Position numbers: made by a program. From Octopus vulgaris (taxonomy: Eukaryota), in NCBI GenBank assembly GCA_951406725.2, contig OX597842.1:10106001-10170000 (forward strand): a stretch of DNA of 64,000 nucleotides, in the 5' to 3' direction. Position 1 is the first letter of the stretch; the number at the start of each line of letters is the position of its first letter. Of this stretch, positions 11,467-53,300 are shown piece after piece.

Positions 11467-14400
11467 GAAGAAAGGAAGAGGGGAGGAGTAGTTGTGAGAA
11501 GAGTAAAGAAAAGAAAGAGTAAGTAAAGTGTTATCAGAAGAGAGGGAGTAATAGCGAGAAGAAAGAGAAAGAGAGAGAAAAGAGTAGAGAGAGAGAGAGA
11601 GAGAAAGAGAGAGGAAGAAAGTAAGAGGGGAAAAAGAGAGAGAAAAGAGAGTAAATTAAGATAGCGAGAAAGAAAGAGAGAGGTAGAAATAGAGAGGAAG
11701 ACGAGGAGAGAGAGAAATTAAACTGCGACAAACAGAGGGGAAAGGTAGAGAGAGATAGAGAGAAAGAAAGAGAAAATAAGATAGCAACAAAGAGAAATAG
11801 ACAGAAGGTAGAAAGGGAGAGAAAATAAGAGAGAGACAAAGAGAGGGAAGGGAGAGAAAGGGGAATAAGCAGGAAAAACAGAGAAGGTAGAAAAATGAAG
11901 AGAGAGAGAGAGAGAGAGAGCAAATAAGATAAGGAGAGATAGTAGGGAGAGTAAGAGAAAATAGGATAACGAGAAAGAGAGCGAAAAATAGATAAAGCTA
12001 GATAGAAAGAAAGGAAAAGAGAGATGAAGTAGGGAAAGCAAAAGAGCGAGAGAAAGAAACATAAAGATAGACAGAAAGAAAGAGAGATTAAGAGAGAAGA
12101 GAAAGTGAAAGAAAGATAAAGATGGACAGAAAGAAAGAAAAGAGAGTTGAATTAAGGCAAAGTAAAAGAGAGAAAGAAGTAACTGAGAAAGAAAGATAAA
12201 AATAGACAGAAAGGGAGAGTATGAGAGATGAAGTAGGAGAAGTAAAAGAGAGTGAAAGAAAAAGAGAGAGAGAAAAGCGAAAGAAAGACAAAGAGAGAGA
12301 GAAAAGCGAGAGAAATAAAAGAGAGAGAAAGGAAAAGAGAGAGAAATGAAAGAGTGAGGAAGATAAACAAAAAGAAAGAAAGAAAAAGAGAGGGAGAAAA
12401 GAGAGAGAAATAAAAGAGTGCGGAAGATAAAGAAAAAGAACGAAAGAAGAAGAGTGAGAAAGAAAAAGAGAAAGAGAAAAGAGTGAGGAATAAAAGAGAG
12501 GGTAATATAGACAATAAGAAACAAAATGAGTGAGAGAGAGAGTGAAAGAAAAGAAAAAGAGTGAGAGACAGAGAGAGATTGGGAGAGAAAAGTAAAAAGA
12601 AACAATAAACTGTATGATAACGCTCGAATGTGAGAGAGAGAGAGAGAGACATAAAAGAGAGAGAAAGACAGACAAAAAGAAACAAAAAGAGTGACTGAGA
12701 GAGTGAGAGAGAGAGAGCGAGTGAAAGAAAAAAAAAGAGCGAAAGAGACAGAGACGGAGTGAGAGAGAAAAGAAAAAAGAAAATTAACTGTAAGATAACG
12801 CTTGAATGTGAGAGAGAGAGGAAAGAGAGAGAGAGAGACATAAAAGAGAGAGAAAGACAGACAAAAAGAAACAAAAAGAGTGAGTGAGAGAGTGAGAGAG
12901 AGAGCGAGTGAAAGAAAAGAAAAAGAGTAAGAGACAGACAGAGAGTGAGAGAGAGAGAAAAGAAAAAAGAAAAAACCAAACTGTAAGATAATAGCGCTTG
13001 AATGTGTAAGCTGCAACGCGATTGGCTGCGAGGTACCGTTGGCGCATGCGTACTTGTGTCTTTCTTCCCGGTCGTCCTTTCCCCAGTTCGCGGTGTTCTA
13101 CTTTGGTTGATCTTAGTGTCGGCCGCGCTGTTTGTACACCATAGTTTTTTTTTTCCACCCCCGTTTGTCTGGTTAAATATACAGCCGAGGTAAATGAAAA
13201 CCATTTTATTCGATTCTCCATTCCCTCTGCTCTGAATTTCAATGAATTTCTTCCCACTTTTCTCCATTTTTTCCGCCCGTTTTCCGCCTCAGAAATATCG
13301 ATGCCATTTTTTTTCCTTCCCCCTCCATGTTTCTTCTTCTTCCGTCTTCATCTCGCCATCTTGGTTTTTATCTCTTCTTTTTGTTCTTTCTCGCATTCGG
13401 CGCAGGATTTACACCGAAAATTTCATTGAAACATCACCAAAAACACACCCAAAACATTCCTTATTCATTTATTAACACTTTTATGTAATTTTAATCCGTT
13501 TTTTTCCAGCTTTTCCATGTTTTTTCTGTAATCACATTTTTCCCCCCCATTTTATTAAATGCCTCACGTTTAACCGGCATTCAACGGCGATCGATAAGGT
13601 CGAGGCTATTATGATGTTTCACTTCGTGTGGAGAGATTTACTAATTTATTCTTAGAATTAGGACGAATTGAGATCATTTTTAGCCAACAAGAAAAGAATT
13701 TTATATATAATTTCAGCCATAATTGTCTTTTAGCCGACCCGCTATCATGTGCACACTGTGTGCGTATATGTATGTATGTATATATAGAAATGTGTGTGTA
13801 TATAGAGAAAAATAATGTGTATATATTTATATAGAAATAATTGTGTGTGTGTGTATATATATATAGAAATAATTGTGTGTGTATATATATAGAAATAATT
13901 GTGTATATATATAGAAATAATTGTGTATATATTTATATAGAAATAATTGTGTATATATTTATATAGAAATAATTGTGTGTGTATATATATATAGAGAAAT
14001 AATGTGTGTGTGTGTATATATATAGAAAAATGTGTATATATATAGAAATAATTGTGTGTGTATATATATTATAAATGTATGTATATATATTTATAAATGT
14101 GTGTGTGTGTGTGTGTATATATAGTGGCACTTAACTTTTAGAGTCCCCACTATTTTACACACAGGAAAAATATATGTAATTTATATATACTGTTTAGCAG
14201 TTGTGTGTATATAAAACATTAGGGTTTAATGGTAAAAAATTTAAAATCAAATCTTTAGTCACACTTGTTTTATTATGAACAGATTATCTATATATATATT
14301 TATATACACATTTGATTTCCCCATTTAATTCGTTGGACATATGTAGGCTCTATTGTCCTTTAGCTGTCCCACTTTGTATGTTATGTGCGTATGTAGTCAT

Positions 14401-50300: not shown

Positions 50301-53300
50301 TTTCAGGGGAAGGAATAACTTAATATTGGAGCCCAGTGTTCCACTGGTATTATTCCATCAACCCCTGTACGGATGACGGTTGAGGTCAACCTCTGGAATT
50401 TGAGCTCAGGATGAAATGCCATTGAGCATTTTGTCTGGCAAGCTAATGGTCCTTGCCGGTTCTCCAGTTTAAATAATAATATCACCTTGTTGGGGGCCAG
50501 GCATTGCTGTGCTGCTGGTTGCTTTGTCACCGGTGCATGGTTACCTGCTTGGGATTTTGGGTTAGCGGGGCAGGATGAGGCTGGGGGTTTGTTTCCTCTT
50601 CTAATGTGTGTGGTTTCCCCCCAACCCCCTCCTGGACTAGATCTCAATCTGGTGGGGGGAGGAGGAATGCGGGGGGAAGCTTGCTCTTTTGACAACTGTT
50701 CCTCTACCTCTTCCTTTTTTTTTTTTCCTTTTGTTTTGTGTATGTATAAATATGTTGATGTTATATAACCTGTATTATCTATATATATCTTGTATTTTGT
50801 TGCAATGATCTAATTTAAGATATTTGACGTGTAGTACCTGTCGAAAATGATGGGGTTTCATTGTATGACAAATTCAGCTGGTGTTAATGGTGAGGTACAG
50901 TTAGTGATAATAATAGTGACATCTTACTAATTGTGATTTAGTGGTGCTCTAATCACTGTTTTTGTTAAACTGTTATGAGGACAGACAATTTGAAGTAGGA
51001 TGGCAGACACTTATGCATGCACACACATGCAGGGCTTCCACACAGTTTCCCATCTACTGCATTCATTCACGTTGTCATCAGGTCTTGTGTTGTCGTCATG
51101 ACATCCATACTGGTGTGTACGAGTTGGAATGTTTGGCAGAGCTGAAGTCTAGTGTCTTGTTCACATCTGATTTGGCATAGCTTCTACAGCTCGCTGGCTC
51201 TTACAAAAAGGGCACTGGGGGGGCTTTAACAAGGTCACTTTGAGGCGTGCAGCTGAGTAAAGTTAGGTGTCTTTGTTCTCAGATGAAAGAGGTTATCCTC
51301 TTATGTAATCAAGTGATTGTGGTCTACATATCTCATAAGGCATATGCCTACGCTTGTACTTTGAGTGGGCTTATATATTAGAACTGGTTTATATTAAAGA
51401 ATAGACATTGGGAGTTGGAGGTTGGTGTAGTGTTATCAACTCTAGCTACCCCTTGTCTGCGACTCCAACTCCACAGCCCTGGGAGAAATGGAGGAATATA
51501 TATTCGGGCATGTCCTGCAGTTCTTGGGTTGCTGTCATTACTGTTTCGTGGCGTAAAAAAAAATAGAATAGCCATTCCCATTTAATCGACTCCCTCCCCC
51601 AATTATGCTTACTGGTGGGGAAAATCAAAGGAGAGACCAATGTGGATCTATCTTAATGGCAATACGCATAACTTGGCAACACACATGTGTGTGTATGTGT
51701 ATATATATGCTTCTTAAAATGTGTGTGTGGGGCTTAGTGTTTAGGGTGTTGCACTTGGTCTGTAGCAATGGTGTTTTTTTTTTTATATATTCTTTGAGTG
51801 GGTGGTTTGTTCTTGATTGAGCAAAGCCTTTCTCCCCCCCCCCCCCATTGCTCTGCGATCACTTTTGACACCTGGTCTGTGGTGCACCGTGCATCTGTTT
51901 AGGCTGTCATTTCGCATGACCTAACGTGGGGCAGGGGCATCACTTGCAATGGCATACCAACGATTCTGCCGGTTTGCCACCTTTGTTGTTGTTGTTGTTG
52001 TTGTTATTAGTATGTGTTTTGAAAATTAATTTTTACCTGGCAGTTTAATTTATTTTTCTTTCTTTTTCCTTTACCTTTTCCGTTTCAGGCAACTATGGTG
52101 GTGGCGGCGGCGGTGGTGGATGGGGTAGCTCATACCGTGGCTACAACTGAGTGTGTAAAAAGTGTGTGTGAGGGGGGGTTGTATCTTGTCTGTCAAAAAA
52201 AAAAAAAAACACCAGTACGCCAGTGTGGTCCATGGTCGTCAGCACCAAGTCTTCAGAAGTTTAGCAAAGAAAGAAAGAAAAAAAAAAACAAAAAACAAAC
52301 TTGGTTGCTGCTTTTTTTATTTTTTTTTTTTTCCAAATTTTTTAACAATTTCCAGCTCATTTCTTTTAAAAGAAAAAAAAAACTTTTTTGTTTTCATCTA
52401 GTTCCTGTCTCTTTCTCTCTCATCATCTATCACACTCTCTTTCTCTCTCTCTTTCTCCATAGTCCTCCTCCTCCTACCTTTTTGAAACACTGGTCACTTA
52501 TTCATTAAAGGAAAAAAAAAAATAAAACTCATTTTCAATTTTATTCTATTCACATGGCTTTTTTTTTTATATAATTATTATTATTAGTTTCTTCCAAGGT
52601 TTTTCTGTTTTTAAATCTAGAAATAATAATAATTTAACCTTGTTTTATTTTTCCTCCTCCACTCTTTTTCCCTCCCTCTGCCCGTCACCGTTTTCCCATT
52701 GAAATAAACTCCATGGTAACTATATACGTGGCCTTTTGTTGTTTGTTCATGAGATGAATGTAACTGGCCTTGGTTCTTTGCCATAGGCCTTCGTGTTTAA
52801 TTACAGTGCATTTGGCTTTAGCAGTTGAAATATGTAACAAACATATTTCACCTAATTCGAAACACTGCTTTGCGCCTATGGTCCCTTAATATACATAAGA
52901 GAAACAATTCTTAACCCTTTTGCTACCAGCCTGGCTGAAACCGCCTCTGGCTCTGTAGTACAAGTGTCTTGTTTTAAGTTTTGGATTAGAATCTTCCACC
53001 AGACCTTGGTCACATTTTATGTTCCTAACACTAGCTTAATGATAACTAAGTTATTTTACTAAATTCTTTGTTATATTTAGAATTAATTGAAAGAAACACA
53101 GAGCATCTCGACAGGAATATGGTATCAAAAGGGTTAAAATATATAATAGAGAAACAATTCTTAACCCTTTTGATACCAACCTGGCTGAAACCACCTCTGG
53201 CTCTTTATTATAAATGTCTTGTTTTTTATAAGTTCTGAATTAGAATCTTCCACCAAACCTTAGTCACAATTTATGTTCCTAACACAAGCTGAATGATAAC

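What the first reader, a model, noticed from the sequence alone, without database searches (positions are those of the whole stretch)
13015..52710. Divergent two-RRM hnRNP-like gene inside a 40-kb transcription unit rich in RNA structure and regulated-splicing features
Seen: a 13-exon CDS, up to three candidate first exons (donors 13189, 18090, 31105) ahead of the ATG exon, PTC-creating acceptors between the RRMs, an in-frame alternative donor in the Gly-rich tail, and many nested duplexes whose mismatches mostly read as G-U on the plus strand (16.7, 22.5, 23.6, 25.0, 28.7, 38.6, 40.5, 43.3, 50.5 kb). Known: RNA-binding proteins often autoregulate through AS-NMD, and coleoids have extensive ADAR editing and many lineage-specific miRNAs. 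Inference: this could be a lineage-specific regulatory switch locus, an RBP plus a structured lncRNA or retained-intron RNA, with promoter, tissue or sex-dependent output. I cannot assign a gene name.
Basis: partly seen in the sequence, partly recalled or inferred. Interest (0 to 1): 0.8.

Follow-up and report, generated by a model that had tools for sequence, protein, structure and literature searches.

The report
Octopus nucleolin-like RNA-binding protein gene
This is an ordinary, already annotated octopus gene for a nucleolin-like RNA-binding protein with a few conserved splice variants, and its supposed richness in RNA structure is the normal repeat and base-composition background of the genome.

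Summary
The 13-exon coding gene is real. All 13 exon peptides are exact substrings of Octopus vulgaris "nucleolin isoform X1" (CAI9743381.1). The coding part runs 33735-52150 on the + strand.

It belongs to paralog A of a coleoid-wide pair of two-RRM proteins. Their nearest outside relatives are nucleolins, not hnRNPs.

Public isoforms confirm the in-frame alternative donor in the Gly-rich tail (171 nt, after 48723 versus 48894). They also show a 30-nt cassette microexon between the RRMs. PTC-creating acceptors could not be tested.

The three upstream donors exist, but equally good donor hexamers occur 11 times in that stretch. CpG observed/expected falls from 0.84 (13.2-31.0 kb) to 0.40 (31.1-52.1 kb). 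This favours a start near 31.0 kb and a unit of about 22 kb, not 40 kb.

Only 5 of 9 cited duplex sites fold better than shuffles, and they do so on both strands. Structured windows are no more frequent than in the flanks (15% versus 16%). The plus-strand G-U excess is reproduced by shuffled sequence.

Verdict: a real, conserved, already annotated gene of low novelty.

The parts
13001..13189 (+).
   Evidence: The sequence was read. The 300-nt window at 13001 has 20 CpG and o/e 1.29. No evidence links it to the gene, and the 18 kb downstream of it are not CpG-depleted.
18050..18090 (+).
   Evidence: The donor is present. It is one of 8 matches to AGGT[AG][AT]G in 13000-33724, and nothing else supports it.
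31001..31105 (+). Most likely non-coding leader exon (5' end not determined), with donor CCGAG|GTAAAA after 31105
   Evidence: The sequence was read. CpG o/e drops from 0.79-1.14 (27-32 kb) to 0.23-0.38 (32-36 kb) just downstream. The ATG exon has an acceptor at 33724-33725, so at least one upstream exon is needed.
33726..33888 (+). Coding exon 1 (ATG at 33735); acidic N-terminus
   Evidence: the peptide equals P0150 residues 1-51.
34539..34595 (+). Coding exon 2 (acidic/basic EKKDDAEKKEEEDD)
36010..36151 (+). Coding exon 3: first half of the degenerate RRM1
   Evidence: the structure model has strand-helix-strand at 77-110.
37662..37771 (+). Coding exon 4: second half of RRM1 (KGFMRMKF)
38138..38167 (+). 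Coding exon 5: 30-nt in-frame cassette microexon (NDGKDKDGK) between the RRMs; it begins AG|GTAACG
   Evidence: It is skipped in isoform X3 of O. sinensis and O. vulgaris and in O. bimaculoides X2. A similar segment is present in decapod paralog B.
41282..41411 (+). Coding exon 6: first half of RRM2. Read-through of its donor gives GGG TAA.
   Evidence: The O. bimaculoides models P0149 and P0146 end exactly here.
42825..42949 (+). Coding exon 7: second half of RRM2
   Evidence: Pfam RRM_1 on P0005 residues 172-237.
44106..44204 (+). Coding exon 8: basic K/N/Q/R linker
45600..45679 (+). Coding exon 9: basic Q/R-rich linker
46295..46365 (+). Coding exon 10
47540..47617 (+). Coding exon 11: invariant helix motif NVTAALSQTSELLKGLTSLLG
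   Evidence: Nearly every residue of the motif is invariant in 9 of 9 and 10 of 10 sequences. The model predicts a helix at 336-361.
48548..48894 (+). Coding exon 12 (long form): G/Y/N/Q-rich tail. The alternative donor after 48723 (TACG|GTAACT) removes 171 nt. A further in-frame donor-like GGAG|GTAACT lies after 48636.
   Evidence: X4 (437 aa) versus X1 (494 aa) is shown. The 48636 site is used by none of the 7 annotated O. sinensis/O. vulgaris isoforms.
52089..52150 (+). Coding exon 13 (GNYGGGGGGGGWGSSYRGYN, TGA at 52148-52150)
52151..52725 (+). 3' UTR with AATAAA at 52703 (also ATTAAA at 52504 and AATAAA at 52521)
22163..22443 (.). AT-rich palindrome of about 280 nt (138-nt arms, 93% complementary); a related copy lies at 29542-29724
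   Evidence: z -28 on + and -26 on -; 81% copy. It is a repeat element upstream of the likely start.
16725..16796 (.). 22-bp inverted repeat with a 25-nt spacer
   Evidence: (z -4.5 / -4.0); it is single-copy in the window.
23616..23690 (.). Imperfect hairpin of about 28 bp
   Evidence: (z -5.1 / -4.4).
38607..38697 (.). Intronic hairpin with an 11-bp perfect core
   Evidence: (z -3.4 / -2.2).
40470..40660 (.). Intronic local structure including a TA-rich 12-bp hairpin
   Evidence: (z -2.9 / -2.4).

Best explanation
The interval holds one conserved protein-coding gene of Octopus vulgaris type. It is paralog A of a coleoid-wide pair of nucleolin-like RNA-binding proteins.

The protein (494 aa in the longest annotated form) has five parts: an acidic N-terminus; a degenerate RRM followed by a canonical nucleolin-type RRM; a basic K/R/Q/N linker; an invariant amphipathic helix; and a G/Y/N/Q-rich low-complexity tail.

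Shown: there are thirteen coding exons from 33735 to 52150, and at least one non-coding leader exon must lie upstream. Inferred: that leader is the exon ending at 31105, which makes the unit about 22 kb.

Shown from public isoforms: output is varied by in-frame alternative splicing. A 30-nt microexon lengthens the inter-RRM linker. An alternative 5' splice site, created by Gly-Asn codons (G|GTAAC) inside the tail, adds or removes a 57-aa Ser/Thr/Arg-rich insert.

Inferred: these switches tune RRM spacing and the self-association or partner binding of the tail. The protein probably acts as a constitutive nuclear or nucleolar RNP factor.

The hairpins in and upstream of the gene are palindromic repeats and microsatellites of a repeat-rich genome. 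They are not selected plus-strand RNA structures.
For: Identity: 13 of 13 exon-core peptides are exact substrings of P0150, O. vulgaris nucleolin isoform X1. All junctions are GT-AG.

Family: a single-exon search returned 9 cephalopod proteins. Cluster look-up shows two clusters per species for O. vulgaris, O. sinensis and Acanthosepion pharaonis. In the tree, clade B (7 rows, decapods and octopods) has support 97/100 and octopod clade A has 95/100.

Relatives: in 1.84 billion representatives only 1 cluster scores below 1e-30. The next named hits are nucleolins, for example fish nucleolin at 2.2e-17. The best PDB match is nucleolin 9cb5_A at E 1.5e-11, spanning both RRM-like modules.

Domains: Pfam RRM_1 scores 26.3 bits against a cut-off of 20.7 on RRM2. 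The structure model shows two beta-alpha-beta-beta-alpha-beta units plus a helix at 336-361, at low confidence.

Isoforms: X1 494, X2 493, X3 484 and X4 437 aa map to the microexon 38138-38167 and to the donors after 48723 and 48894.

Start site: CpG o/e is 0.84 upstream and 0.40 in the gene, with GpC o/e about 1.0 in both. In 500-nt windows the medians are 0.88 (n=35) and 0.32 (n=25), p 1.9e-6. Passages of PMC9476566 state that octopus gene-body methylation marks highly and constitutively expressed genes.

Against: No transcript data were available. The leader exon, the start site and the actual use of any splice site in this animal therefore rest on annotation from other records and on CpG depletion.

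Large first introns can escape methylation, so a distal start at about 13.0 kb is not excluded. That stretch is the CpG-densest in the window.

The structure model is poor (mean pLDDT 41.9), and RRM1 has no Pfam hit in P0005.

Function is inferred from architecture only. No paper on this gene turned up among the 12 listed of 24 papers holding 'nucleolin' and 'octopus' (search listing only).

The 1-aa difference of isoform X2 cannot be produced by canonical sites that I could see in the window.
Confidence: 0.75

Rival explanations
1. A 40-kb transcription unit uses up to three alternative first exons (13189, 18090, 31105). Its long introns carry selected RNA duplexes, such as ADAR substrates, miRNA precursors or a structured lncRNA. 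The RNA-binding protein autoregulates through PTC-creating splice sites (AS-NMD).
For: The three donors exist. 12.9-13.2 kb is CpG-dense and promoter-like. 5 of 9 cited sites fold better than shuffles, and 61 of 398 windows have z below -2 on the + strand. O. bimaculoides models of 208 and 198 aa end exactly where read-through of the exon-6 donor meets TAA, which could reflect a truncating isoform.
Against: Donor-like hexamers are common in the upstream stretch: 11 AGGTRA in 20.7 kb. The 13.2-31.0 kb stretch lacks the CpG depletion of the gene body. The z-scores are equal on both strands (mean -0.66 versus -0.58, p 0.50) and equal to the flanks (15% versus 16% of windows below -2). The G-U excess is reproduced by shuffles. 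No Rfam family reaches its gathering score, and the miRNA-like hits are TG/TA microsatellite. The largest duplex is a repeated AT-rich palindrome. All 7 annotated O. sinensis/O. vulgaris isoforms are in frame.
Confidence: 0.12
2. The gene, together with paralog B, is simply the cephalopod orthologue of nucleolin and does nucleolin's job in rDNA transcription and pre-rRNA processing.
For: Nucleolins are the best named relatives. The protein has an acidic N-terminus and a Gly-rich C-terminus. NCBI names both paralogs nucleolin or nucleolin-like. A word-indexed search with limpet nucleolin listed no other cephalopod nucleolin, which is weak evidence.
Against: It has two RRM-like modules rather than four, and RRM1 is degenerate. 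The tail has one RGF and one YRGY rather than RGG repeats. Similarity to nucleolins is far weaker (E 1e-11 to 1e-17) than that of limpet nucleolin to vertebrate nucleolins (E about 1e-55). A collinear bivalve protein at 26% identity hints at a separate molluscan family.
Confidence: 0.3
3. The CpG-rich stretch at 12.9-13.2 kb and the unmethylated-looking 13-31 kb block belong to a separate unit, such as an unannotated non-coding transcript or a regulatory landscape, and not to this gene.
For: CpG o/e is 1.17 at 12.9-13.2 kb and 0.84 across 13.2-31.0 kb. No coding signal was seen there: stop-to-stop ORF lists show only low-complexity or unmatched ORFs, and 1 ORF from that block gave no Pfam hit.
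Against: There is no positive evidence of transcription. The block is full of microsatellites and palindromic repeats.
Confidence: 0.3

Closest known systems
Nucleolin (vertebrate NCL; limpet nucleolin P0143)
   Same: It is the best sequence relative by profile search. Both have an acidic N-terminal region, tandem RRMs and a Gly-rich C-terminus. Both RRM-like modules align to consecutive nucleolin RRMs.
   Different: It has two modules instead of four. RRM1 lacks a Pfam match. The tail is G/Y/N/Q-rich with almost no RGG. The similarity is remote. No intronic snoRNA was found; vertebrate NCL hosting snoRNAs is recalled, not tested.
hnRNP A/B-type '2xRBD-Gly' proteins
   Different: No hnRNP chain is among the 12 PDB matches. 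RRM1's RNP motifs lack the usual aromatic residues (sequence read against a recalled consensus). An acidic N-terminus and a long basic linker are present.
TDP-43 (functional analogy only, recalled)
   Same: Two RRMs are followed by a Gly-rich prion-like tail that contains a short conserved helix. Here the helix at 336-361 is invariant in all 19 aligned sequences.
   Different: No detectable sequence relationship was seen in any search. The domain order before the RRMs differs.
Sinanodonta woodiana RRM protein P0023 (bivalve)
   Same: The match is collinear over both modules and into the linker, at 26% identity over 221 columns.
   Different: It is 922 aa with an unrelated C-terminal half. Its branch in the tree is very long, so orthology is unproven.

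Membership tests
RRM superfamily (Pfam PF00076) | Match above the curated score for an RRM | tested here: met
   RRM2 scores 26.3 bits against a cut-off of 20.7 on P0005 residues 172-237, and 30-37 bits on three homologues. Single window exons alone gave no hit, because each RRM is split over two exons. The joined window protein was not searched.
RRM superfamily (Pfam PF00076) | A second (N-terminal) RRM fold | tested here: inconclusive
   A second Pfam stretch appears in 2 of 4 homologues. The model predicts beta-alpha-beta-beta-alpha-beta at 77-146 with pLDDT of only about 50. The region aligns to a nucleolin RRM in the PDB search.
Nucleolin | Nucleolins are the closest relatives by sequence | tested here: met
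   The top named hits after the family itself are nucleolins. The best PDB match is 9cb5_A at 1.5e-11.
Nucleolin | Four RRMs in animals (recalled definition) | tested here: not met
   There are only two RRM-like modules.
Nucleolin | C-terminal RGG/GAR repeat domain (recalled definition) | tested here: not met
   The tail holds one RGF and one YRGY. It is otherwise G/Y/N/Q-rich.
Nucleolin | One-to-one orthology with molluscan nucleolin | tested here: inconclusive
   Limpet nucleolin matches vertebrate nucleolins at about 1e-55, but matches this family only at 7e-10 in the profile search. No other cephalopod nucleolin was listed, and the word index limits that search.
hnRNP A/B 2xRBD-Gly | Sequence similarity to hnRNP A/B RRMs | tested here: not met
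   0 of 12 PDB matches are hnRNPs. Atlas rows named hnRNP F-like and hnRNP M score 0.85 or less, so they are leads only.
AS-NMD autoregulated RNA-binding protein genes | A PTC-introducing splice isoform that is used, and conserved flanking intron sequence | not testable with these tools
   No RNA data and no other cephalopod genome were at hand. The only indirect hint is that two O. bimaculoides models end at the exon-6 donor read-through stop.
Selected intronic RNA structures / ADAR substrates | Folding beyond dinucleotide shuffles that is specific to the transcribed strand or to the locus | tested here: not met
   Mean z is -0.66 on + and -0.58 on - (p 0.50). The gene has 15% of windows below -2 against 16% in the flanks. 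The G-U bias is reproduced by shuffles. Editing itself is not testable.
Known miRNA/snoRNA host gene | An Rfam family at its gathering score inside the unit | tested here: not met
   0 of 28 matches at E up to 1 reach the gathering score. The best is mir-297 at 47 bits against 90, lying on TG/TA repeats.

The most novel reading that the evidence does not exclude
The A/B pair is a coleoid-specific offshoot of nucleolin. Its low-complexity tail carries splice donors written into its own Gly-Asn codons (G|GTAAC, three in phase within exon 12). Its inter-RRM linker carries a microexon that starts with a donor-like AG|GTAACG. Both would then be ancient, regulated switches: the microexon segment is shared by octopod A and decapod B, and the tail insert is partly conserved in cuttlefish. 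In addition, the CpG-dense site at 13.0 kb could be a rarely used distal promoter. Its 18-kb first intron would expose the 280-nt palindrome and other hairpins to ADAR or Drosha in particular tissues.
Probability: 0.1. Interest if true: 0.5.

Novelty: new member of a known kind. Interest (0 to 1): 0.25.

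Why it matters
The gene model and its isoforms are already in public annotation under misleading names (nucleolin, or keratin type I cytoskeletal 9), so the locus itself is not a discovery.

Three points are mildly useful:
- The protein belongs to an uncharacterised, highly conserved, apparently coleoid-restricted pair of nucleolin-like two-RRM proteins. 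It is 65-83% identical across roughly the octopus-squid divergence.
- Its alternative splicing events are old and in frame.
- The CpG-depletion step gives a cheap, sequence-only marker for where the transcribed gene body begins in octopus.

The negative result also matters for the scan. In this G+T-rich, repeat-rich genome, nested duplexes with plus-strand G-U 'mismatches' are expected by composition and should not be scored as evidence of RNA structure.

Tried and rejected
- **Pfam on five single stop-to-stop exon ORFs.** No RRM hit, because the RRMs are split by introns.
- **Extra or duplicated exons.** tblastn of four homologues looked for the decapod GKQDQRG... segment and for a second copy of exon 9, suggested by P0001 versus P0003. 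None was found in the window.
- **First sliding-window fold run.** It hit the time limit and was redone with smaller windows.
- **The repeat finder.** The output was swamped by TA microsatellite, so I used a dust-filtered self-blast instead.
- **Rfam at E up to 1 and ARAGORN.** No credible RNA gene. The mir-2 match at 53116-53180 (-) scores 31.5 bits against 45.5 and overlaps a repeated element.
- **Atlas search.** Only generic RRM clusters, all below 0.9.
- **Z-chromosome question.** Passages of two preprints name O. vulgaris chr16 / O. sinensis LG20 as Z. The gene's O. vulgaris record is 34.56 Mb long. I found no chromosome lengths, so the assignment stays open.
- **Structure search.** I did not run it, because the model's confidence (pLDDT 41.9) is too low for meaningful matches.
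- **Pfam on flanking and intronic ORFs.** Only sub-threshold GIY-YIG and RVT_1 matches.
- **Collections.** The genome collection holds only bacteria and archaea and was not used. Cross-species intron conservation therefore stayed unchecked.
- **Paper supplements.** They were closed and may hold chromosome sizes and isoform tables.

Full report
**What is there.** The window has no N and is AT-rich (GC 0.39).

One exon (41284-41409, 42 aa) retrieved 9 cephalopod proteins of 412-541 aa, all carrying PF00076. tblastn of the closest one (P0005, Octopus sinensis) back onto the window laid out 13 coding pieces on the + strand. Reading the junctions gives 13 GT-AG exons:
- 33726-33888 (ATG at 33735)
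- 34539-34595
- 36010-36151
- 37662-37771
- 38138-38167
- 41282-41411
- 42825-42949
- 44106-44204
- 45600-45679
- 46295-46365
- 47540-47617
- 48548-48894
- 52089-52150 (TGA at 52148-52150)

All 13 exon-core peptides are exact substrings of P0150, 'nucleolin isoform X1 [Octopus vulgaris]' CAI9743381.1. O. sinensis differs at two residues of exon 1.

**What the protein is.** Pfam finds one RRM_1 above cut-off, RRM2 at P0005 residues 172-237 (26.3 bits against 20.7). A second, weaker stretch appears in 2 of 4 homologues. Single exons gave no RRM hit.

An AlphaFold2 model built on 9 sequences is poor overall (mean pLDDT 41.9). It still shows two beta-alpha-beta-beta-alpha-beta units (77-146 at pLDDT about 50; 170-243 at about 70) and a helix at 336-361. 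Because of the low confidence I did not run a structure search.

A profile of the 9 proteins was scored against 1.84 billion representatives. Only 1 cluster scored below 1e-30, the family itself, and 131 scored below 1e-3. Of the 10 next full-length hits that I looked up, the named ones are nucleolins (fish 2.2e-17, bird, tapeworm, limpet) or unnamed molluscan RRM proteins. Against PDB sequences the best of 12 matches is nucleolin 9cb5_A (E 1.5e-11). That alignment covers both RRM-like modules against two consecutive nucleolin RRMs. The other matches are Sxl, Hu proteins, PUB1, CBP20 and one ribosomal protein, with no hnRNP. A bivalve protein (P0023) is collinear over both modules at 26% identity.

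'Nucleolin-like' therefore fits better than 'hnRNP-like'. Membership in nucleolin proper fails on RRM number and on the RGG domain. The similarity is also far weaker than that between limpet and vertebrate nucleolins (about 1e-55).

**One-to-one orthologue?** Cluster look-up shows two clusters per species. Cluster A holds this gene: O. vulgaris, O. sinensis, a partial O. bimaculoides model, and Acanthosepion pharaonis P0004. Cluster B holds O. vulgaris, O. sinensis, O. bimaculoides, Argonauta, and A. pharaonis P0158.

In a maximum-likelihood tree of 16 rows, clade B has support 97/100 (7 rows, decapods and octopods) and octopod A has 95/100. The decapod A rows are unresolved, and the bivalve outgroup sits on a very long branch, so the root is unsafe. 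The simplest reading is a duplication before the octopod-decapod split. The family is highly conserved, at 65-83% identity to P0005. The helix motif is invariant in both alignments.

**Splicing.** Public isoforms of O. sinensis (X1 494, X2 493, X3 484, X4 437 aa) and O. vulgaris (X1, X3, X4) differ in three ways:
- *A 10-aa block between the RRMs.* This is the 30-nt exon 38138-38167. It is also present or absent in two O. bimaculoides models. A similar GKDGKDGDGK block occurs in the 3 decapod B proteins and in none of the 6 octopod B proteins.
- *A 57-aa block in the tail.* This corresponds to the donor after 48723 (TACG|GTAACT) versus the donor after 48894. The insert is partly conserved in the cuttlefish model P0004 (SSSPSAS-RYSGD-YT).
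- *One Asp at the exon 7/8 junction (X2).* I could not derive this from canonical sites in this window.

The tail's donors lie in Gly-Asn codons (G|GTAAC). A third such site after 48636 is in the same phase but is used by none of the 7 annotated isoforms.

PTC-creating acceptors could not be tested. The only hint of a truncating form is that two O. bimaculoides models (208 and 198 aa) end exactly at the exon-6 donor, where read-through gives GGG TAA. This may equally be an artefact of a 67-kb scaffold.

**Where the unit starts.** The ATG exon has an acceptor (AG at 33724-33725), so an upstream leader exists. However, AGGTRA occurs 11 times in 13000-33724, so a donor alone says little.

CpG observed/expected is 0.84 over 13.2-31.0 kb and 0.40 over 31.1-52.1 kb, while GpC o/e stays near 1.0. 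In exon-free 500-nt windows the medians are 0.88 (n=35) and 0.32 (n=25), Mann-Whitney p 1.9e-6. The fall lies between the 31-32 kb and 32-33 kb bins.

Passages of PMC9476566 report gene-body methylation in octopus on a subset of highly, constitutively expressed genes. By inference, the historically methylated gene body begins just after 31.1 kb. This favours the 31105 leader and a unit of about 22 kb.

The 12.9-13.2 kb stretch is the CpG-densest in the window. It may be a promoter of something, and a minor distal start is not excluded.

**RNA structure.** I folded 150-nt windows every 100 nt over 13001-52801 (n=398) with 16 dinucleotide shuffles each.
- Mean z is -0.66 on the + strand and -0.58 on the - strand (Wilcoxon p 0.50).
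- z below -2 occurs in 61 windows on + and 54 on -.
- The flanks (n=237) give 37 and 37 such windows, 16%, with Mann-Whitney p 0.27 against the gene. After dropping simple-repeat windows the figures are 10% in the gene and 11-13% in the flanks.

There is thus an excess over a normal expectation, but it is the same on both strands and outside the gene. That is the pattern expected of DNA-level palindromes and microsatellites.

At the nine cited sites (60 shuffles), five fold better than chance on both strands and four do not. The strongest, at 22163-22443, is an AT-rich palindrome with no G-U pairs on the + strand and an 81% copy at 29542-29724.

Raw energies are lower on the + strand (-30.3 versus -26.4 kcal/mol), and G-U pairs are three times commoner there (114 versus 37). 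Shuffled sequences give 115 versus 52, in line with the strand's composition (T 34.8%, G 19.5%).

Rfam at E up to 1 gave 28 matches, none at gathering score. The miRNA-like ones sit on TG/TA repeats at 25.8-26.4 kb. No tRNA was found. Covariation, editing and small-RNA output could not be tested, because no cephalopod genome or read collection was available.

**Verdict.** The locus is a real, conserved gene for a nucleolin-like two-RRM protein, already annotated, with old in-frame splice variants. The claims that made it look exceptional are either not supported by the controls or untestable here. These are the 40-kb unit, the three promoters, the selected plus-strand duplexes and the switch-locus idea.

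Literature searches for 'nucleolin' with 'octopus' returned 24 papers. None of the 12 listed is about this gene by title (listing only). The Z-versus-autosome question stays open.

Noticed in passing
window 2064-6045: A 4-kb stretch is its own reverse complement at 97% identity. It holds a 624-aa ORF on the - strand (2451-4322) and ORFs on the + strand. One of these (5290-5631) has a sub-threshold GIY-YIG match of 18.6 bits against 22.6. This may be two head-to-head copies of a Penelope-like retroelement or an assembly artefact.
   Followed up: partly
window 6547-8027: Tandem units of about 140 nt are present in both orientations at 92-100% identity, giving many inverted-repeat pairs and long repeated ORFs.
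   Followed up: no
window 9900-12900: A purine-rich low-complexity tract of about 3 kb lies directly upstream of the CpG-dense site at 13.0 kb. GC skew reaches 0.85 and AT skew 0.67.
   Followed up: no
window 25800-26450: A TG/TA-type microsatellite of about 600 nt folds at -72 kcal/mol on the + strand and -15 on the - strand. It draws spurious mir-297 and mir-3149 matches.
   Followed up: yes
window 38138-38167: The 30-nt microexon starts with AG|GTAACG. Splicing exon 4 onto it would therefore rebuild a donor-like site at the junction. This is the layout of recursive-splice exons (recalled from the literature, not tested), so skipping could proceed in two steps.
   Followed up: no
window 27000-27700; also 946-1355 and 59100-59339: CpG-rich repeat units (o/e up to 1.4) are arranged in tandem, with related copies in both flanks and a 42-nt match inside the intron at 35346-35387.
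   Followed up: no
window 52895-52990 and 53150-53250: Two copies of a short interspersed-repeat-like element lie just past the gene's 3' end. The weak mir-2 match at 53116-53180 (-), 31.5 bits against 45.5, overlaps one of them.
   Followed up: partly
window 8052-8922 (-) and 58645-58941 (+): These are ORF fragments that look like transposon remains. One has a sub-threshold RVT_1 match of 18.2 bits against 29.6. The other is a peptide that I recall as resembling the C-terminus of mariner-type transposases, with no Pfam hit.
   Followed up: partly
proteins P0001 versus P0003 (not in the window): Two otherwise near-identical decapod proteins differ in a block of about 40 residues in the basic linker (exon 9-10 equivalent) by changes that A-to-I editing cannot make. 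This suggests mutually exclusive exons or two alleles or genes in that species. No second copy of these exons exists in this window.
   Followed up: partly
window 53500-64000: The downstream flank is also CpG-depleted (o/e 0.44). It holds a G-rich low-complexity block at about 60.6-61.5 kb. It may be part of another methylated gene body.
   Followed up: no
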